Part shown: positions 3,051-63,340 of the stretch, in pieces
How the letters are laid out: every line of letters starts with the position of its first letter
Numbering within the stretch: the stretch's first letter is position 1
DNA from: the human T2T-CHM13v2.0 reference genome, Homo sapiens
Strand: one strand, 5' to 3'
Assembly: GCF_009914755.1 (NCBI RefSeq)
Contig: NC_060933.1
Length of the DNA: 64,000 nt
Made by a program: the position numbers and the translations under genes
The notes under the pieces: model-generated
The model's input: only the letters and a program-made list of their open reading frames with translations
Database searches by the model: none
What the model was told of the DNA's origin: nothing

Positions 3051-3497
3051 GACAGGCAGTATTAACAAGGGTTTCAGGGAGGCATTTAGACCACACAATA
3101 GGCTGAGAGACAGAAGTGATGAGTTTGGTGCCAATCATAATATAGAAAGACAAAAAAAAAAAAAAACCCAAACACCATAATCCCAAATGTTGAAATCCCA
3201 AAAGATCAAAATCCCTAAAAATTACAATCCCTAAAGTCTAAAATCCTTAACATCTAAAATCCCTAATGTCTACATTCAGAAAATCGCAATCCCAACAGAT
3301 TAAAATCCTGAATGTTGAAATCCTGAAAGCCGAATTCTAGGGAGGGGATTAGTATATTTTCAGTTGCATGCAGGATTACTGCATTGTGTCAGTTGCATCA
3401 TATTAGGCAGAACAATTACCTTGTTATTGTCTTTATTTGGAAATGAAGTATGGCTTACAGAGATATGTGTGGGTGCCAAGTGGATGAGGGGTAGAAT

Positions 3498-4606: not shown

Positions 4607-5979
4607 AATACAAATACAATACTCATTGTATTTTGAAGATCTTAGAGGTAAAAATGCAGAACAATACAAGAACTCTCTCCTGGCAAATTATTTAATCATG
4701 TATGACTTCTGCCCCTGTGCACACAGTGCCAGTTTGCCATACTGTTTTTCACCTTCACATTATTACCAATACTGGAGGTATGACTTATGTAAACTTTAGG
4801 GGGTTCTAATTCGTTTTATGCACTTTTTTGCAAATTTGACACCACAAAAGTGCATTATCACAACATTGTCTTTGTATATGAGCATTGCACATGTCCATAA
4901 AAATGTTGAAACTCCCTCAATAAACAAAGAGCTGTCCCTTTTGTATATCTGCGTTTGTGAAAAATAAAATTTCACAAGATCTGGGCTCTTGAGCTACTGC
5001 ATATGTGGTAGTAACCCCTCAAAGTTTTTGAATGATCTTGTCAAATGACTGAGGTTGTCCTTCCAGGTATATCCGATGACCGCAGTTATAAAGCTGACGC
5101 ACACAATTACCAACCATAGTGAAGCACTTTTATACATGTCACTTTTTGACCTCTTTATGAATATGGTTCATCTGCTCATAACTTTTATACTCATGACTGT
5201 AGTTAGTATACCTGAGTGTTTATACTTGCAAAAATATATTTTATTGCCTATTTTACTGTACAAAGTGGCCTATGCAGTGTTTATCATATTTTTATATGTT
5301 TCTCAAATAAATTCCCCTTAAAAACATAAATAAATGTTTTTTAAATAATTTATAAAATTATTGTTTTCCATAATTATATTTTCAGGATTTCAACATTCAG
5401 GATTGTGTCTTTGGGGATGATAGCCCAAGCTCTGCTGGGTTCTGCTGTCATCCGTGTCTCTAATGATTCATGTCACTTAGTCCCTCTGACCTCAGTTTCC
5501 TTATCCAAAACAGTGTCTGGACAATGTGTTTTCATAGCAAGCAGTCCCCAGCCCTTGGTTTTGCCCCCTGTGCTGGGAGGAGTCCCAGGCTATCCTCTCT
5601 CTCCCTGACTGCTGCCCTCATCCTCTGGTCACCAAGGCCTGGGTAAGTTTGCTCTGGTTCTGTTTTTAGAGAGCTGTCTCTCTGGGTTCTATTTGCCAGC
5701 CCCTCCTTAACCGTTGTGGCCCAAACACTCCCTGCTGTGGCCAGCTTTGAGGTACGACCCATCCTTTGTTGTTTTCCTAAACCCAGTCCACACCATTGAA
5801 AAACAAATTCCTTTATTAAACTTCACTTGCTACCCAGCATGAGTGCACCATGATGGATCTGGAATCAAACCCCAGTAATTTGAATCCAGAGTTCTTAACC
5901 ACTACACTGTCCTCATCATCTCAGGATGCAAGTGACTTCACATCTCCTTAGTTTTCTAACCGAACTGATTTGAGCCCCC

Positions 5980-14013: not shown

Positions 14014-15849
14014 TTTTTTTTTTCTTTAACACACCCGACTTATTAAAAAACTTGCAAGTGAGTGAGTCAGTATTACCCAAGCTCACCCAAACTGGTGGTA
14101 GAATGATGGAGCTCAGAACTACGCCAGTGTTTAAGCTAACCTGAGATGAAGTCTGGAACAGTTAATTCTGCTGTGTGAAAAACAAATAATGAAAAGCATA
14201 TTTTTAATAAAAAACTGGAAAAACAAATAAAAAGCAACTGCCCAACCTCCCTTCCTTAATTTTTGAGGGAGACGTAGCATGTAAATGTATATGTATGTAA
14301 ATTTGTATTTAATTGTGTATTAGTTTTTCTCCTTTGCAGGGTCTTCTCTCTGAAGGCTAGTGGCTGGACCTGCACTCAGATGGCAATTCAGGTCCAGTTC
14401 ATGAGATCTTGGACTGTTTTGACAAATGATTTGGGGAAAGGGATAGGGAGAGAGTTGTCAGTACCGATGCTGAGACTGTGAGAGCCATTTCTGAGTGGAG
14501 GTGAGGAAAAACGGAGCGATGACCGTGAGGGTCTTTGCGTGGCGCCTCGAGACCACACCTGGGAACGGTGACTTTGGAACTGGCTGACGTGTTTATTTGG
14601 TGTGAGGTCAACTACAGCTCTGAGGGCAATAACATGATCCTCATAAAACAGACCCCCCAGGCTGGGCCTCAGCCCGCTTGCTGCCAAGCAGGGGTGGTGG
14701 CCTAATAAGTGAGACATTGCTATCAACTCTCTGTAAATGGTGGGTTCATTCACTCTGTGGATGACATAGCCTGTTCTTTGCCCTTCTGTGTCAGCCCCAT
14801 TGATTGCTTTTTAACCACCTTCTTGCTTTGTGCTGCTTCTTTCAGATGAAAAGGAAGGGAAAAGAGACTTCATTTCCATACCCACTAACCATGCCAACAG
14901 AAGGCTTTGTGAAGAAGGAAGTAAAAGCTATCGGTAGGAGTTAGAAAAAAACATTTCTAGTTACAAGAACAGCAGAAAAAGACCTGAACTTCAGAGTGGA
15001 CCACAAATGAATATGAATTAATAACACAGATCTCTTTTCAAAAGCCAACACAAAATGAGGATGTGTTTTTTGCAAAAGCAGTTGTTCTTGCCACTGGGCT
15101 TATGCTTGTCATTCTTTCATGTGTCACAGCCAGACCTAGGAAATTCCCTGGAAAGTCCCCTCCATCACACACCTGCAGTTTTTCCATTTGAGTGTAATTC
15201 TGTTGGACCTTGAAAGACTTTTTGATCTTTGGGACGCTCTTATCACCAAATGTATCTTTCTGCAGGAAGAAGACAGAAGAAAGGGGTGGACTATGAGATG
15301 GGAGCCTGGGTCCCAATTTCAGTTCAACCATTACCAACCAGGTGGCTTTAGGCAAGTCTGGTCATTTCCTTTGCCTCAGTGGCTTTCTATAAAATGGAAT
15401 TCTATAGGGATGATGAAAGCGAAAACGTTAGCCACTATGCTTGCTAGTGCTCAAGAAATGATTCCTTCCTGCCTGCCTGCCTCAGTTTTCCATCTGTAAA
15501 CAAGGATTCAACTAGAACATCTTTGAGGTTCCTTGAGCTCTAACACTCTGTGATTCTGTTGGCAGCACCTTAAGAAATTTACAACAAACACTCCATTGAG
15601 TCTTAATCTATTAGATCCCATTCAGTTCTAATAGTGTTGTGATTTTGACTTTGTAGCCTCATGTTTATTTTCTCTCTTCCTGATTTTTTATTTATATATT
15701 CTATTTAATAGTTTTTGCTTTTTCAAGTTGTCACCAGTTCTTTGTAGAATAAGAAAAAAGTATAACTAACTGGAGGAAAGAATGCATTCACAGAAAGCCA
15801 AGGAATGATAACACTAATGCTAATACAATACTACTGCTAATAAAAATAA

Positions 15850-16040
15850 CTGCCTTTATTGAACACTTACTGTGTGCAAAGAACTATGCTAAGCACTTTA
15901 TAAACATTGGGTCATTTAATTCTCACAGTAACCCCATGAAGCCATACTTTTCATCTCCATTTTTACAGATAAGGAGACTGAGTCTTAGAGATAGCAAGCA
16001 ACTTGTCCATGGTAAAGCTGAGCTGCAAATTCAGGTTGGG
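15850..16040 (-). mobile_element. MIR SINE
   Basis: tttattgaacacttactgtgtgc...ccatttttacagataaggagactgag. Confidence 0.85.
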
Positions 16041-16052
16041 ATAACTCGGAGA

Positions 16053-16295
16053 AGTGGTGTGCCGGCAAACAGGCATGCAAAACCAGAACTCCAAATCCCT
16101 GGTTTGGAGCATTTACTGATTTCCATGGTATAAACCCTCCCACTATGGCTGAATTCAAGTTACCAACAGTTTAAAACCAGCTCAAAAATTTTTAAAAATA
16201 CCTCACTGCTAGGGAATACCAGGAATTGTACAATTCACTGTCTTCATTTTAACAATCCACTCTTGCAAGCCAATCAGAGCCAACCCCAACACATC
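16053..16295. mobile_element. MER63 (hAT) interrupted by a ~50-bp templated insertion
   Basis: tttccatggtataaaccctcccactatggctgaattcaagttaccaac...aaaat|insert|ttaacaatccactcttgcaagcc matches the recalled MER63 consensus on either side of the insert. Confidence 0.75.
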
Positions 16296-16443
16296 CCAGA
16301 GAGAACCTGTGTTGATGACCACTAGGCTACACTGTCTCCTTGTATCACAGGCTGGGGCTGGGGATGATAGGGAAAACAAACAAAAAAACAAAACAAACAA
16401 ACAAGAAAGGGGAGAAGGTTATGGACAGAGAAAGTAAGGAGAT

Positions 16444-16775
16444 TTTGCAGCAACATGAATGGAGCTGGAAACCATTATTCTAAATGAATTAATGCAGGAT
16501 CAGAAAACCAAGTACTGCATGTTCTCACTCATAAGTGGGAGCTAAACACTGAGCGCACATGGACACAAAGGAGGGAATGATAGACACCAGGGACAACTTG
16601 AGGGTGGAAGCTGGGAGGAGGAAAGGATTGAAAAACTACCTATCAGGTACTAAGTTTATTACCTGGGTGACCAAATAATCTGTATACCAAAACCCCGAGA
16701 CATGCAATTTACCCATCGAACAAACCTGCCCCTGTATGCCCTGAACCTAAAAGAAATGTTGGAAAGAAAACAAAA
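16444..16775 (+). mobile_element. 5'-truncated L1 (L1PA15/16-like) 3' end
   Basis: ORF2 end (catgttctcactcataagtgggagct) plus 3' UTR; perfect 15-bp TSD AGAAAGTAAGGAGAT at 16429-16443 and 16776-16790. Confidence 0.9.
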
Positions 16776-16796
16776 AGAAAGTAAGGAGATGACAAA

Positions 16797-17000
16797 TTCA
16801 TTCATCCATTCATTCATTCCTGCATTCATTCACTCCACAAAGGCTTTTTGAGTACCAGCTAAGTACCTGGACTTGTGGTACACACTTCAGATACAGACAT
16901 GAGTAAGATAAGGAGCCTGGAGTGTGTTGGTGAGAGAGTGACATGCACACAAATGACTGAGCACATGATGTGTACAAGTATGTGTATGAGTCTGGGGGAC
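16797..17000 (-). mobile_element. L2 3' end
   Basis: (TTCA)n tail followed by L2-like sequence. Confidence 0.6.
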
Positions 17001-20000
17001 CCCGGTGAGGGACGAATTAATTGTACTTGGAGATCCTTGAAGGATGGAGTTCCAGGTGACACAAATTTTGCTTCCTTTCCAATTTGTAGGGGAGTTTCCC
17101 TCACTAGAGACATGTGCTCGGTGTAGCTCTTGATATTTTGGAACTAAATAGTGAAACCGAAGATGGGGCCAGGAGAGGAAGAATGATGAGAAAGTATGCT
17201 CCTTGGAGTTAGGGAAGCTGTTGCATCACCCCCGTGTTACCGACACCTGGTACCACAGAGTTGGCGCTCGGTGACTATTTGTTGACTTGGTGAATCACTG
17301 ATGAATAATGATTTGTAAGCTCCAAAGAAGGTGGTTTGCGGAAAGGGGACCAGTGATAGCAGGAAAATGCACAATGTGAGTAGTGATTCCTAAGCATTTA
17401 AGGGGTGATTTTCAAGTAATAGAGTGAGCAGAAGACACCATGTACAGGGACTCCAGATGCCCCAGGCAGAGGTAAAATGCTCGAAAGAGAGGAACATCAC
17501 TACCTGGCGGGCAGGTGGGGACAGGCTTGCCACGGATGGTCTGGGGATGGGATAACTCTCTGGCTCCCACTCTGAGAAGCAGGAGGTGATCTGGCCACAA
17601 GCCCTCAAGACGTGTTGAGTTTGGGAATACCTCACTGCTAGGGAATACCAGGAATTATGCAATTCACTGTCTTCATTTTAAAATTCTGTATGGGAGAAGC
17701 TAAAAAGTGAAGTTGGGGGGTTTTAGTATATTTCATTTGCATTGGTTTACTCTTCTCGTTCCTTGATTATCTGAGAGGAGGCTGCTGTTACGGAAAAGCG
17801 AAAACCAGGAGTGGTTTGAATATTCTTCCTTGAGACTTTTGACTGTTTCTATAAGAAGTGGATCTGCATGTGCCTTTTGGATATTGTGTTCCTCATGACA
17901 ATGCCTTTTGTTCATAGATAGTTCCCAGTTTCCAAAGACTTTCCCCATTATAACATTTGTTCCATCCTCAAAACCGTCAAATGCAAAGGCCTCCATTTTA
18001 TTAAAGGAGAAAGTACGACTCAAAGAAGTCAAGTGACTCACCCGAGGTCACACAGCTAAATTCTAGCAGAGCAAGGGACCAAGATAGTGAATTCTAAATG
18101 CAGAGACCTTCTTATTGTTCCAATTTTCTGTCCGACAATGCCCACCTCCTGGAGTGAGCAAGTCTTGCTGGAGACACAACAGCAGCTACAAGTGGTCCTC
18201 CCGACTATTCCAGAAATCCTTTTTCCACAGTGAAAAACTGAATTTGCCTGCCCCAGTTTCCCAGCCGCCTCATGACTCGATGAGCAATTGCTTTAACTCT
18301 GACAAAATTAGGCCACCTCCAACCTAAATGTAACCCGTTTTCAGAGTGAGACCCTGCATGGAGGCAGCTCTTTTCCTGAAAGGATAACAAAAGCATGCTT
18401 TTGTGTGTATTTCACTTGATGGAAAGAAATCCCCAGTGAGGCCGTTTTTTCCCCCTGAATTCTCCCAAGTCCAGAATGTATCCAAGTTTCCAATATTACC
18501 TCAGAAGAGCCATTCATCTATGAAGATGGCCGAATTGTCTTCCAGCTCGGTAGACAGTGTGTCTGCGAGAGAGAAGGTGAGGGGGTGCAGATAGAGGTGT
18601 GGGGAGAGGGTGAGGGAGGCTGAGGGCAGAGGAGGAAGACGCGAGAGGAGAAAATGTGTGCAGACAAATGCTGACAAGAGAAGGAAAGAGGCGAAAGGGC
18701 CAGCCCTGACTCTGGGGTCCCATCTGCCAGGGACACTTTTGGCTGATTCTTTTTAGGGCCTGTCAAGATCTGCCTGGTGAGCTGTCACTTGTCATCACTT
18801 GGCTCTCAATGAGGATCTTTGTGTCTTCACTGTCATGAAGAGGCATGGCAACTGGCAAAGAATTTCCTGGGGCGCTACCTGATCCACCATTATTCACCTC
18901 TTATCATCTTAGCAGAGTAGTTACGCCACTGTCAGAGGTAATGGAGACCATGCCACTAAGAAAATTGGCCGTAATTTATTTATCAGTTGTTTCTGTATAC
19001 CACAAAAGCGGCCTTCTACTTTACGGCTGGGTCTAAGGTATTTGAGAGCCCTCGAAGTTCATGGTTTTCCGGTATTCTAACTTCTACTTATGGCCTTTCC
19101 TGTAGATGACACACAACACCGCCCTTGTGGCTTGCAGTCAGTTTTCTTCTTTGCTTTCTTTAGTCACAAATCATCCTGAGGCATCCCTTAAGTGCATTTG
19201 TATTGTTAAGTGCACCAGCTTGATTTGGTGTTAATTCAATTTGAGTGCCCTTAATATCTTGTGGGGGTGATGCAATGCAGGCTGCCTCTACCTTGTAAAA
19301 TCGGGTCCCAGGTCCGCCTGCGAGCAAAGCACCTTTCCCATAGCCACTTACCAAAGTTGCTGATAAAATTTTCATAAGGGAACCTTTTTAGTCTGACCCT
19401 ATTGTGTTATTCTACCATTAAGTCTCAGAGAACTGAGCTGGCTTCTAGTGACAGCTTATCACATTCTCCATTATTGCTGCCTGCCCAGAGAGCTGGCTGG
19501 CTGTGTGTAGTGCAAGCTCCCTCCCTCCCCACCACTTCTGGGACGTTCTGGGAAAAGCTTGTGGGCCAGCACCTCGGGGCTAATGGGAGATTGTCTCTCT
19601 GTGGGTGCCAGAGAACTGAGCTCTCTTCCTGATGAGCTGGTTCCTTTCACCTTGGAAAGCTCGAGGGGCCCTGAAGGATGAGGAACCTGAGGGATAAGGA
19701 GAGCAGTGAAGGGTGAGCTGAAGTGGAGGAAGAGTTACAAAGCACTTTCCTTAAAACAGCACAGAACGCAGCCACAACCATGTGAGCACCACTCTGACAC
19801 ACAGTTTGAGGCAGAGGATTAGACCAGGTATTTGTCTTTGGAATATTTGCTTTAGAAACATGATGACATTATTCACTCCAAGAGAACTCCAAAATCATGG
19901 GCCACTTGTCCCTGGGTTGGCATCTGAACTCAGTAGCTTATTTGCTTTGTGACCTTGATCAGTTTTCCTATCTGTGAAATCAGCACCCACCTATGGGTTT

Positions 20001-20047: not shown

Positions 20048-20878
20048 ATTAAATGAGGCAACACATATAAAGACCACCAAAAACAGTATCTCCTGTGACT
20101 ATCTTAGAATCCAGGAGGCCGTCAAAGGGCAAGGTGAGAAAGCTGGTTCAGACAGTGCAGAAATTATCTGGGTACCACAAGATGAGAAAGAGATAATAAG
20201 TCTAGAAACTTGGTCTTCTGATCCTTGACCCAATCTAGGTCCTTTCCGTCCATCCCACTGTCTCCCTAATGCTGTCCATGGACATCAGGAGCTTGAGTAG
20301 ATTTGGGGTGCATCAGGCTACTTTCTACTTCCTTGATGACAAGATTTCTTCACTGCAGACTAACCTCTTCTCGGTCACTCTTCCTTGTTTTGTTGACTGT
20401 GTCTGAGGAATGGCTTAAATCTGCCTAACAGTGTGAGCATTGCCCCTACCTGTCTGCTGCGTTGGGTTAAAAAGCATGGTAGTCCAATAAACAGAACTGG
20501 GAGATGCTCTTTCAAAAGAGCATTTAAAAATTATTGTTCACTGTAGATGTCACAGAAGTATAGATAAAGTGCAAATACTACAGCAAAAGGGAAAAATCCC
20601 CTGTCATGCCACCTATAACCGTGAAGTCACGTGCTGTGTTTTCTTCCTCTTTTTCTTTTCTTTTTTTTTTTTTATTATACTTTAAGTTTTAGGGTACATG
20701 TGCACATTGTGCAGGTTAGTTATATATGTATACATGTGCCATGCTGGTGCGCTGCACCCACTAACTCGTCATCTAGCATTAGGTATATCTCCCGATGCTA
20801 TCCCTCCCCCCTCCCCCCACCCCACAACAGTCCCCAGAGTGTGATATTCCCCTTCCTGTATCCATGTGATCTCATTGT

Positions 20879-22637
<1,759 letters not shown>

Positions 22638-22699
22638 TTCCTCTTTTTCTATGCACACACACGTGCTCACTTGTTCACCTGCTTGCTCTCTTCAGTATA

Positions 22700-42502: not shown

Positions 42503-42607
<105 letters not shown>

Positions 42608-43287
42608 TAGGAAGAGAGGAAGTCAGATTATCTCTGTTTGCAAATGACATGATTGTATATTTAGAAAACCCCATTGTCTCAGCCCAAAATCTCCTTAAGC
42701 TGATAAGCAACTTCAGCAAAGTCTCAGGGTACAAAATCAATGTGCAAAAATCACAAGCATTCTTATACACCAATAACAGAGACCAAATCATGAGTGAACT
42801 CCCATTCACAATTGCTACAAAGGGAATAAAATACCTAGGAATCCAACTGACAAGGGACGTGAAGGACTTCTTCAAGGAGAACTACAAACCACTGCTGAAG
42901 GAAATAAGAGAGGATACAAACAAATGGAAAAACATTCCATGCTCATGGATAGGAAGAATCAATATTGTAAAAATGCCATACTGCCCAAAGTAATTTATAG
43001 ATTCATTGCCATCCTCATCAAGCTACCATTGATTTTCTCCACAGAATTAGAATAAACTATTTTAAATTTCATATGGAATCAAAACAGAGCCCGTATAGCC
43101 AAGACAATCCTAAGCAAAAAGAACGAAGCTGGAGGCATCTTGCTACCTGACTTCAAACTATACTACAAGGCTACAGTAACCAAAACAGCATGGTACTGGT
43201 ACCAAAACAGATATATAGACCAATGGAACAGAACAGAGGCCTCAGAAATAACACCACACAGCTACAACAATCTGATCTTTGATAAAC

Positions 43288-43863
43288 CTGACAAAAACAA
43301 GCAATGGGGAAAATATTCCCTATTTAATAAATGGTGTTGGGAAAACTGGCTAGCCATGTGCAGAAAACTGAAACTGGACCCCTTCTTTACATCTTATAAA
43401 AAATTAACACAAGATAGATTATAGACTTAAACATAAGACCTAAAACCATAAAAACTCTAGAAGAAAACCTAGGCAATACTATTCAGGATATAGCCATGGG
43501 CAAAAGTTTTCTCCCATTCTGTAGGTTGCCTGTTCACTCTGATGGTAGTTTCTTTTGCTGTGCAGAAGCTCTTAAGTTTAATTAGATCCCATCTGTCAAT
43601 TTTGGCTTTTGTTGCCATTGCTTTTGGTGTTTTAGTCATGAAGTCATTGCCCATGCCTATATCCTGAATAGTATTGCCTAGGTTTTCTTCTAGAGTTTTT
43701 ATGGTTTTAGGTCTTATGTTTAAGTCTATAATCTATCTTGTGTTAATTTTTTTATAAGGTGTAAAGAAGGGGTCCAGTTTCAGTTTTCTGCACATGGCTA
43801 GCCAGTTTTCCCAACACCATTTATTAAATAGGGAATATTTTCCCCATTGCTTGTTTTTGTCAG
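43288..43863. repeat. 216/217-bp inverted repeat with 143-bp spacer (within L1)
   Basis: 43288-43503 is the reverse complement of 43647-43863 with 3 differences. Confidence 0.95.
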
Positions 43864-46477
43864 AAAACTTTTGCAATCTATCCATCTGGCAAAGGGCTAA
43901 TATCCAGAATCTACAAAGAACTTAAACAAATTTACAAGAAAAAAAAAACCCATCAAAAAATGGGCAAAGGATATGAACAGACACTTCTCAAGACATTTAT
44001 GCACTCAAGAAACATGAAAAAAAGCTTAACACCACTGGTCACTAGAGAAATGCAATCAAAACCACAATGAGATATCATCCCATGCCAGTAGGATGGAGAT
44101 CATTAAAAGTCAGGAAACAACAAATGCTGGAGAGGATGTGGAGAAATAGGAAAGCTTTGACACTGTTGATGGGTGTGTAAATTAGTTCAACCATTGTGGA
44201 AGACAGTGTGGCAATTCCTCAGGGATCTAGAACCAGAAATACCGTTTGACCCAGCAATCTCATTACTGGGTATATACCCAAAGGATTATAAATCATTCTA
44301 CTATAAAGACACATGCACACGTATGTTTATTGCAGCATTGTTCACAATAGCAACGATTTGGAACTAACCCAAATGCCCATCAATGATAGAATGGATAAAG
44401 AAAATGTGACACATATACACCATGGAATATGAAGCAGCCATATAAAAGGATGAGTTCATGTCCTTTGCAGGGACATAAATGAAGTTGGAAACCATCAGTC
44501 TCAGCAAACTAACACAGGAACAGAAAAACACTGCATGTTCTCACTCATAAGTGGGAGCTGAACAATGAAAACACATGGACACAGGGAGGGGAACATCACA
44601 CACCGGGGCCTGTTAGGGGGTGGGGGGCTAGTGGAGGGACAGCATTAGGAGAAATACCTAATGTAGATGATGGGTTGATAGATGTAGCAAACCACCATGG
44701 CACGTGTATACCCATGTAACAAACCTGCACGTTCTGCATATGTATCCCAGAACTTAAAGTATAATTTAAAAAATGCTCTTTTAGCACAAAAGTATGGAAA
44801 TAAAAATGAAAGAGAAGGAAACCAATGGTGGCCTCACTTTTATCTACCTGTCCCCAAAGCAAACAACTTCTCACCATGAAGTTTATTTTTTTAAAAATTA
44901 GTCATTCCAGTTATTCATTGAGCCTTTATGAAGCCTAACATGAGTTTCAAATATTGGCTAAGAGTAGGAGCTATATTCTGATATAAAGAGACTCTTAATA
45001 ATTTCCAAAATGTCTGATGCAGTGAAGCCCTTTCAGCGAATTAATACAATGAAGAAAAATAGCATTCCTTTTAAGAGGGATGATCAGGACAATAGGAGAA
45101 GTAATTCTCGAAAGTTGAGACATGTGTCCTGGTTCTTAACTCTGACCATATCTTTTTTCCACCCTCTTTCTTCATTTTCTTGTTCTGCAGTTCTCTTTTC
45201 TGTCCTCTGCCTACTTGTGCCATTTGCTCTTCCCTTTCTAACAGACTTGGCCATAGCCAGTGATGGTCACCCCCCACCCAGGAATGCTGATTGTGTGACT
45301 GTAAATCATTTGCAAATCACATGATTAGCTGCCTGGAGCTGCCTGATTAGTCTGCTAGGCCTCAGAATGTGTCCTCCTTGAACCCCTCCTCCATCCCACA
45401 TACATCTTTGTCACTGGATTTCAAATACAGATAGTGCACAGGAAGAGATAAGAGCCATTTTTTTCCAGTATCCTCTCCACCCTCACCCCACACTCACCAT
45501 TCTACCCAATGGAAAAGAAATGAGATAATTAGAATTCTTCTTTCATTAGAAAATTTGCAAGATGAGACCCAAGAGGTGGAGCATGCCAGATGTTGTGGAG
45601 AGCATGACTGCTCAGTCCCTTTGGCCATACATGCTGAAGTCATGAAATTGGGAAATCTGACTCAGGAGTCACCATCTAGTGTAGGAGCTGACAAAGCACC
45701 AAATGCTCTGGGACAACTGGTCAACCTGCCAGTCCCTGGAGCACAGGCCTGGTGTGAGTTTGCTCTCAGGTCGTGATCAGTCAGAGGGGAACGGGAGAGT
45801 TGGGGCTCCTTCTGCACATTCTAGGAAACCCTGAAAGGCTCAGATTCAAGGTGAGCTGTGAGCTGGGAATACCTGCAGTTGCAAGGGAAGGCCTGTTGAT
45901 ATTTCTGATTCTTCCTGAGTGCCTGGAGTCTACCTCCAGGTGAATGGTAGAGTACCTTGGATGCATATGTCTCTTTTAGGTGTCAGAGGAATAAGATACG
46001 ATGCTCTAATAGGTTTCAATGACAGAATGTGAGAAAGAACATACTTCTATGCCTTTTCTGTTACAGCTATATCTTTTTTAAAATTACGATGTGAGTGAGT
46101 CATCACTTTCTAAAAAATGAACAAAGACATAAGAGGGAACAAGGTTTTAAATACAGGCTCTGGGCTCAGCTTGTTCCTCACTGAGCCCAATTCCAATCAG
46201 TTCTTGGTCTGTCCTAAGCTGTTGTTCCAGGTCTAAGTGGTACATTTATCCCAATTTTTAAAAATAGATTCAGAAAGTTTGAGCTCTGTGCTACTTTTCT
46301 CCAGTCTTGACACAACTTGGAAAAGCAAATAGGATCTGCCTCCTCAGCTTTGCTTATCAGCTCTGGGACCACTCCAGGTTTCCTTCATTCCCTAAAGCCT
46401 GGAATGTCCTTTCAGGCTCACATGGAGAGACATTCCTCAGACAAGGGGTCCTCTAATCAATATCACCCAGGTGGCCT

Positions 46478-49010: not shown

Positions 49011-49384
49011 TGATAGATTTGGGCAGGGACACAGATCCAAATCATCAAATCTAATTGTAATCCCCAGTGTTGAAAGAGGGGCCTGATGGAGGTGATTGGA
49101 TCCTGGGGGCAGATTTCCCCGTTGCTGTCTCATGAGGGTGAGCAAGTTCTCATGAGATCTGGTTGTTTAAGTGGGTAGCACCTGGCCCATCTCCTCCTCC
49201 TGCTCTGGCCATGTGAGACGTGTATGCTTCCCTTCTCTTTCCTCTGTGATTGTAAGTTTCCTGAGGCCCCCCAGCCATGCTTCCTGTACAGCCTGCAGAA
49301 CCATGAGCCAAATAAACCTCTTTTCTTTATAAATGTCTGAGTCTCAGGTATTTCTTTATAGCAGTGTGAGAAGGGACTAATATA
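49011..49384 (+). mobile_element. MSTA/B MaLR solo LTR with 5' micro-inversion
   Basis: aattgtaatccccagtgttg...tgtaagtttcctgaggcc...aataaacctcttttctttataaat...gactaata. Confidence 0.9.
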
Positions 49385-62888: not shown

Positions 62889-63340
62889 CAGTTGGCCCTT
62901 TGTGTTCACAGGTCTGCATCTGCCAGTTCAGCCGGCCCTGACTGAAAATATTTGGGAAAAAAATTACAATTAAAAAGTAAGAATATTCACCTTCTGCCAT
63001 GAGCAAAAGCCTCCTGAAGCCTCACCAGAAGCTGAACAAATGCTGGCGTCATGCTTGTACATCCTGCAGAAACGTGAGCCAAATAAATATCTTTTCTTTA
63101 TATTAAAAAAGGAACAATGTAACAATAAAAACATAAATGTTTAAAAATACAGTATAACACCAATTTACATAGCATTTACATTGCATTAAGTATTATAAGT
63201 AATCTAAAGATGATTTTAAAGTATATGGTAGGATGTACGTAGATTATATGCAATTTTATATTATGGACTTAAGCATCTGAGGATTATGGTGTGGCGGGGG
63301 CGGGGGGAGGGCCTGGAATCAAGCCCTCACAGATAATTGA
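62889..63340. mobile_element. MER2 (TcMar-Tigger) with internal insertion
   Basis: cagttggccct...aaaatatttgggaaaa...tttacatagcatttacattgcattaagtattataagtaatcta...ctggaatcaagccc. Confidence 0.85.
62985..63105 (+). mobile_element. MST LTR 3' fragment, probably retrocopied by L1
   Basis: cctcaccagaagctgaacaaatgctggcgtcatgcttgtac..gagccaaataaa; flanked by a 13-bp near-TSD. Confidence 0.75.

What the first reader, a model, noticed from the sequence alone, without database searches (positions are those of the whole stretch)
16197..17681. 56-bp unique sequence copied from 1.43 kb downstream into the middle of a MER63
Seen in sequence: AATACCTCACTGCTAGGGAATACCAGGAATT(GTA/ATG)CAATTCACTGTCTTCATTTTAA occurs at 16197-16252 and 17626-17681 (54/56 identical). 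From the recalled MER63 consensus (...CCTGAAAAT TTAACAATCGGCTC...), removing the first copy restores a continuous element. So 16197 is the acceptor and 17626 the donor, with junction microhomologies AAT and TTAA. There is no poly(A) or TSD, so it is not retrotransposition. Inference: a templated insertion from break repair (Pol theta-mediated end joining or template switching) with polarity fixed by the host repeat. The direct repeats could also seed a 1.43-kb deletion.
Basis: partly seen in the sequence, partly recalled or inferred. Interest (0 to 1): 0.7.

Follow-up and report, generated by a model that had tools for sequence, protein, structure and literature searches.

The report
Short repair-copied duplication inside old transposon
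A 49-base piece of unique human DNA sits inside an old mobile element and has a near-identical twin 1.4 kb away; it was likely copied there during repair of a DNA break, a kind of scar already catalogued by the hundreds in the human genome, so this is an ordinary new example.

Summary
Window 16197-16252 and 17626-17681 match at 54 of 56 bases, direct, 1429 bp apart, and the genome search finds only these two copies. The first copy interrupts a ~208-bp DNA-transposon relic with terminal inverted repeats (MER63A by recall). Against a consensus built from genomic copies it is a clean 49-bp insertion, with no host base lost and 3 + 4 bases (AAT, TTAA) shared with the donor. None of 56 other copies spanning that site carries it. 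So 16197 is the acceptor and 17626 the donor; a 9-bp repeat that runs past the donor's edge agrees.

This is a repair-mediated duplication as defined by Pace et al. 2009, who list 824 in human with donors under 5 kb away. The locus is absent from their Table S1, probably because it is 1 bp under their 50-bp cutoff. Classic Pol theta is disfavoured: its templates lie within 50 bp of the break. Age is likely within the apes or Old World primates (4% divergence, wide interval). The insert lies in non-coding exon sequence of alternative CCDC171 transcripts and no function is evident. New member of a known kind; low interest.

The parts
16052..16199 (+). Left part of the host, a non-autonomous DNA transposon with terminal inverted repeats (MER63A by recall; consensus positions 1-157)
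   Evidence: the window copy matches the genome-derived 208-bp consensus at 149 of 193 aligned bases (77%)
16197..16199 (+). Left microhomology AAT, shared by host consensus, acceptor and donor
16200..16248 (+). Inserted 49 bp (acceptor copy); placement can slide one base left
   Evidence: single 49-base gap against the consensus, no host base missing at the junction
16223..16236 (.). Perfect 14-bp palindrome inside the acceptor copy; both mismatches (16228, 16230) fall in its centre, and the donor has only 5-bp arms around a non-palindromic spacer
   Evidence: and direct reading; no excess folding energy
16249..16252 (+). Right microhomology TTAA
16249..16299 (+). Right part of the host element (consensus 158-208)
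16429..16790 (+). 5'-truncated L1 3' fragment between the two copies, with a perfect 15-bp target-site duplication (16429-16443 / 16776-16790); likely older than the duplication
17623..17649 (+). Local 9-bp direct repeat in the donor (17623-17631, 17641-17649); the first unit begins 3 bases outside the duplicated tract
17626..17681 (+). Donor (template) copy in single-copy sequence

Best explanation
A 49-bp stretch of single-copy DNA is inserted without loss of host bases into an old DNA-transposon relic, its twin lies 1429 bp downstream in the same orientation, and it was likely copied there in a primate germ line by microhomology-primed repair synthesis at a double-strand break (a repair-mediated duplication). 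Shown: insertion size, polarity, 3 + 4 bp microhomologies, no TSD, no poly(A), two copies only. Inferred: a break at 16199/16249; one 3' end paired with the nearby donor through 3-4 bases (on the resected other end, the sister chromatid or the homologue); a polymerase copied about 52-53 nt; the new strand came off and paired with the other end through the second microhomology. Which end primed and which polymerase acted cannot be read from the sequence. The product is likely neutral.
For: Clean 49-base gap against the genome-derived host consensus. Of 79 distinct family loci examined, 66 span the site and 56 are of the same subtype; these differ from the consensus length by -3 to +9 bases and none has the insert (one of the 43 scored as zero, L012, in fact has an Alu with a 17-bp TSD there). 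Microhomology of 3 + 4 or better at 14 of 127,400 possible donor positions in the window, summed 7 or more at 115 of 127,400, both counts including the two true positions. The donor's 9-bp repeat extends 3 bases beyond the copied tract. Only two genomic copies. Distance and junction type match Pace et al. (PMC2671141): 824 human cases under 5 kb, peak near 1.2 kb, microhomology 2-9 nt, 'MH only' in 2 of 39 inspected proximal cases, poly(A) in 0 of 39.
Against: No orthologous empty site could be examined; the empty site rests on a consensus from which this copy is 23% diverged, and three host substitutions lie within 9 bases of the left junction. Sequence alone cannot separate break repair from a replication-fork template switch. 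Junctions with microhomology only are the minority in the published class (2 of 39).
Confidence: 0.72

Rival explanations
1. Replication template switch (fork stalling / MMBIR type) without a two-ended break: the nascent strand jumped about 1.4 kb ahead through one microhomology, copied about 50 nt and jumped back through the other.
For: Gives the same product: direct orientation, microhomology at both junctions, no host base lost. A second event with template-switch anatomy lies in this window at 43288-43863.
Against: Nothing in the sequence excludes it. It ranks lower only because insertions templated from within 2 kb of induced breaks, with 2-3 nt microhomology, are seen experimentally (bioRxiv 10.1101/2022.09.30.509517, passages; there the nearby break is mostly at the donor locus, so the analogy is partial).
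Confidence: 0.15
2. Canonical polymerase theta-mediated end joining made the insertion.
For: 3-4 bp microhomologies at both junctions and an AT-rich break site.
Against: PMC7165422 (abstract and passages): insertions of 3-30 bp, first-round synthesis rarely over 10 bp, template within 50 bp of the break. Here one 49-bp tract comes from 1.4 kb away.
Confidence: 0.07
3. RNA-templated or L1-assisted patch: a piece of CCDC171 pre-mRNA was reverse-transcribed into a break.
For: Donor and acceptor lie in the annotated CCDC171 span and the insert is in the sense direction (hub annotation). A T-run/A-run resembling an L1 endonuclease site (motif as given in PMC5110952) lies 6 bases left of the junction.
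Against: No poly(A), no TSD, and the insertion point is not at that site; RNA would not need to come from 1.4 kb away; proximal cases in Pace et al. lacked retrotransposition marks (0 of 39).
Confidence: 0.04
4. Reverse polarity or leftover of a larger duplication: 17626 is the derived copy, or both are remnants of a 1429-bp tandem duplication.
For: No orthologue was available to exclude it.
Against: The host is complete on both sides of the insert and its family never has it; a copy out of the transposon would have had to take almost exactly the earlier insert's boundaries; the donor's own 9-bp repeat runs past the tract; homology stops at both edges.
Confidence: 0.02

Closest known systems
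Repair-mediated duplications (RDs), Pace, Sen, Batzer and Feschotte 2009, PMC2671141 (read: abstract, all 7 parts of the main text, all 107 chr9 and the 1 MER63 occurrence in Table S1)
   Same: Single-copy sequence inside an interrupted transposable element; one donor under 5 kb away; 2-9 nt microhomology; no poly(A); polarity read from the repeat consensus; primate age. Their table already has a MER63D-hosted case on chr1.
   Different: Net 49 bp, one base under their 50-bp entry threshold and well under their mean of 162 bp; no filler or deletion (2 of 39 of their inspected junctions). Not listed in Table S1: no chr9 row between 13.22 and 17.94 Mb of hg18.
Doublets (short paired duplications), Thomas et al. 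2004; seen only as described and cited in PMC2671141, the paper itself not held
   Same: Short, near-identical local pair, proposed there to come from imperfect break repair.
   Different: Here the polarity is known from the host repeat.
Pol theta templated insertions (TINS), PMC7165422 (abstract and passages)
   Same: Microhomology-primed synthesis, release and second annealing.
   Different: Template 1.4 kb rather than under 50 bp away; 49 bp rather than 3-30 bp.
Class 2 templated sequence insertion polymorphisms, PMC5110952 (part 1 of 4 read)
   Same: Break patched with a copy of other genomic DNA; no TSD or poly(A); microhomology.
   Different: Those donors are distant and the insertions polymorphic; here the donor is local and polymorphism is untested.

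Membership tests
Repair-mediated duplication (Pace et al. 2009) | Transposable element interrupted by sequence not alignable to its consensus, with the two halves contiguous in the consensus | tested here: met
   consensus 1-157 and 158-208 flank a 49-base gap; 0 of 56 same-subtype copies have it
Repair-mediated duplication (Pace et al. 2009) | Inserted sequence found at exactly one other genomic place (reciprocal search) | tested here: met
   two hits only; the search is not exhaustive for highly diverged copies
Repair-mediated duplication (Pace et al. 2009) | Donor more than 50 bp and less than 5 kb from the acceptor | tested here: met
   1373 bp between the copies, 1429 start to start
Repair-mediated duplication (Pace et al. 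2009) | Junction marks of repair (microhomology 2-9 nt, filler or deletion), no poly(A)/(T) of 5 or more | tested here: met
   3 + 4 nt, no filler, no deletion, no tail
Repair-mediated duplication (Pace et al. 2009) | Pipeline entry threshold of 50 bp between repeat fragments (the authors call it a detection limit of their method, not a property of the class) | tested here: inconclusive
   49 bp net, 56 bp with microhomologies; how RepeatMasker splits this copy was not available
Repair-mediated duplication (Pace et al. 2009) | Empty orthologous site in an outgroup species | not testable with these tools
   No other primate genome is held (no relatives)
Pol theta templated insertion (PMC7165422 definition) | Template within 50 bp of the break | tested here: not met
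   Template 1.4 kb away
Pol theta templated insertion (PMC7165422 definition) | Insertion of 3-30 bp | tested here: not met
   49 bp from one tract
L1-mediated retrotransposition (class 1 TSIP) | TSD, poly(A) tail, insertion at the endonuclease site | tested here: not met
Host: non-autonomous hAT DNA transposon | Short terminal inverted repeats, no coding capacity, many dispersed copies | tested here: met
   208-bp consensus with 14 identical terminal bases; 413 and 926 first-look candidates
Host: non-autonomous hAT DNA transposon | 8-bp target-site duplication (feature recalled) | tested here: inconclusive
   Flank identity peaks at 8 bp (0.363 vs 0.25-0.33 for the other 10 lengths) over 32 full-length copies of 79, p about 0.002 uncorrected; not visible at the window copy
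Host: MER63A specifically | Match to the Dfam/Repbase consensus | not testable with these tools
   Name recalled; PMC5753468 (passages) only confirms that MER63A-D are listed as hAT elements

The most novel reading that the evidence does not exclude
The two mismatches, 2 bases apart and turning a quasi-palindrome into a perfect 14-bp palindrome, were made during the copying itself; the insertion is then very young, perhaps human-specific or still polymorphic, and records an error-prone polymerase copying 50 nt from 1.4 kb away inside a CCDC171 terminal exon.
Probability: 0.08. Interest if true: 0.35.

Novelty: new member of a known kind. Interest (0 to 1): 0.14.

Why it matters
It matters little alone: it is one clean, apparently uncatalogued example of a class with 824 listed human members. 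Its modest use is to show that the class continues below the 50-bp cutoff of the 2009 survey, and that such events could be collected from T2T assemblies to ask which pathway copies about 50 nt from about 1 kb away in the germ line. No effect on CCDC171 is evident: the insert lies more than 1.2 kb past the first stop in all three frames of the annotated exon and adds no poly(A) hexamer.

Tried and rejected
Insert as part of the host family: rejected; 0 of 56 spanning same-subtype copies, and 1 of 79 loci shared a 12-14-mer with it, in distant flank. Insert or donor as a dispersed repeat: rejected within the sensitivity. Secondary structure as cause of the switch points: no excess folding on either strand of donor or acceptor, z -0.07 to 0.80 (4 of 4 sequences). 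One quasi-palindrome template switch as cause of both mismatches: rejected by inspection, since the two changes would need opposite arms as template. Original distance of about 1.08 kb (L1 arriving later): disfavoured; the L1's closest scored relatives are 81-85% identical (39 non-self of 40 scored, 10,378 candidates) and 2 or fewer differences in 49 has P = 0.016 at 15% divergence. Locus already catalogued: not in Pace Table S1. A search for CCDC171 + deletion + structural variant listed 4 papers; the CCDC171 passages of 2 of them do not concern this site, the other 2 were seen as listings only and no supplements were read. The search 'vicinal insertions' found nothing. SV catalogues could not be searched, so the 1429-bp deletion is open. 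Thomas et al. 2004 could not be read, so whether this pair is among its doublets is open.

Full report
1. Observation. The two stretches 16197-16252 and 17626-17681 are direct repeats, 54 of 56 identical, 1429 bp apart start to start (self-BLAST E 3.5e-19). Homology stops at both edges. The mismatches are at 16228/17657 and 16230/17659, leaving perfect blocks of 31 and 22 bases. A genome search with 17600-17700 returned the donor and the acceptor only, and so did one with 17250-17990 at E up to 10. The tool skips very common words, so this supports but does not prove single-copy status.

2. The host. A search with 16040-16320 gave 40 scored matches of 110 candidates; apart from the self match and the donor, all covered the left flank. 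Two intact copies used as queries brought more loci, 79 distinct in all. An iterated profile and alignment gave a 208-bp consensus with 14 identical terminal inverted bases. The 32 full-length copies average 80% identity to it, and flank identity peaks weakly at 8 bp. This is an old non-autonomous DNA transposon, probably hAT. The name MER63A is recalled; PMC5753468 (passages) lists MER63A-D as hAT.

3. The insertion. The window copy spans 16052-16299 and matches the consensus at 149 of 193 aligned bases, with one 49-base gap and no host base missing at the junction. Of 79 loci, 66 span the site and 56 reach at least 33 of 50 identities around it. Their lengths there differ from the consensus by 0 (43), -1 (6), +1 (2), -2 (2), -3 (2) or +9 (1); none has the insert. 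One of the 43, L012, is a false zero: it carries an Alu with a 17-bp TSD ending two bases from this junction. The 10 spanning loci below the identity cutoff were left out of the count; they range from -14 to +16. Imperfect homology reaches 6 of 9 on the left and 7 of 9 on the right. Among 127,400 possible 49-bp donor positions in the window, 14 give at least 3 + 4 and 115 give a sum of at least 7, the two true positions included, so chance is about 1 in 1,000 or less.

4. Polarity. The host fixes 16197 as acceptor. Independently, the donor holds a 9-bp direct repeat (17623, 17641) whose first unit starts 3 bases outside the copied tract, as expected if that context is the original one.

5. Age and surroundings. 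Two differences in 49 is 4.1% (95% interval 0.5-14%), about 9 My (1-32) at 2.2e-9 per site per year, the rate used in PMC2671141, or 17 My (2-58) at 1.2e-9, a slower rate I chose from recall. Between the copies lies an L1 3' fragment with a perfect 15-bp TSD whose closest scored relatives are 81-85% identical. It is probably older than the duplication (P = 0.016 at 15%), so the template was already about 1.4 kb away. By the hub annotation the acceptor lies in exon 14846-16640 of alternative CCDC171 transcripts; all three frames stop within 33 codons of that exon's start, and the only poly(A) hexamer in 14846-17000 is at 15839. The insert is non-coding. Neither strand of either site folds better than shuffles.

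6. Mechanism. Shown: size, polarity, microhomologies, no tail, no TSD. Inferred: a break in the transposon, priming of one 3' end on the donor through 3-4 bases, about 52-53 nt of synthesis, release, and annealing to the other end through the second microhomology (0.72). A fork template switch gives the same product (0.15). Canonical Pol theta repair fits poorly: PMC7165422 (abstract, passages) gives insertions of 3-30 bp and templates within 50 bp (0.07). RNA templating (0.04) and reverse polarity (0.02) have little support. A preprint (10.1101/2022.09.30.509517, passages) reports that a third of insertions at an induced break come from within 2 kb of cut sites, depend on resection and often carry 2-3 nt microhomology; there the nearby cut is mostly at the donor, so it is an analogy only.

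7. Comparison with what is known. Pace et al. 2009 (PMC2671141; main text read in full) screened for transposable elements interrupted by sequence found once elsewhere. They found 824 human cases with donors under 5 kb, a peak near 1.2 kb, mean length 162 bp and microhomology of 2-9 nt; 2 of 39 inspected proximal junctions had microhomology only and none had poly(A). They attribute them to SDSA and already note that such pairs may seed deletions. This locus meets every sequence criterion I could test except, by one base, the 50-bp entry cutoff. It is not in their Table S1: none of the 107 chr9 occurrences falls between 13.22 and 17.94 Mb of hg18 (I did not lift coordinates, but this gap brackets the locus at about 16 Mb), and the single MER63 row is on chr1. 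The other three supplementary files were not read.

8. Against this reading, and left open. No orthologue could be examined. The empty site rests on a consensus 23% away, with three host substitutions within 9 bases of the left junction. The two mismatches are adjacent and make a perfect 14-bp palindrome in the acceptor; two random differences in 49 bases fall within 2 bases of each other about 8% of the time (95 of 1176 pairs, my arithmetic), and I have no single-step explanation. The suggested 1429-bp deletion could not be looked up.

9. Verdict. Real, correctly read by the first stage, and a new member of a class described in 2009. Interest 0.14.

Noticed in passing
window 43105-44773: Inside an L1, a 217-bp inverted duplication (43288-43503 / 43647-43863, 98.6% identical) around an inverted 143-bp spacer: sense 43105-43503, antisense 43500-43863, sense again from 43862, with short overlaps at both switches. 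The arms are far more alike than this L1 is to its neighbour at 20666-22635 (85-91%), so it looks like a younger template-switch event, or arms homogenised by gene conversion.
   Followed up: partly
window 20633-22669: This L1 changes orientation at 22131/22132 relative to the L1 at 42546-44773, as expected of a twin-priming 5' inversion (interpretation recalled, not tested).
   Followed up: no
L012:1580-1790: Another copy of the same transposon has an Alu inserted with a 17-bp TSD ending two bases from the junction studied here; this AT-rich spot was hit twice among the copies seen.
   Followed up: partly
window 16429-16790: Truncated L1 3' end with a perfect 15-bp TSD; not in NCBI's list of longest masked stretches; the annotated exon 14846-16640 ends inside it with no canonical poly(A) hexamer nearby.
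   Followed up: partly
window 3289-3328 and 5380-5418: Inverted 40-bp pair, 87.5% identical, 2 kb apart; probably two fragments of a dispersed repeat, not checked against the genome.
   Followed up: no
window 49276-49331 and 63050-63102: Direct 56-bp pair, 86% identical; resembles the 3' ends of two MaLR-type LTR relics (label recalled).
   Followed up: no
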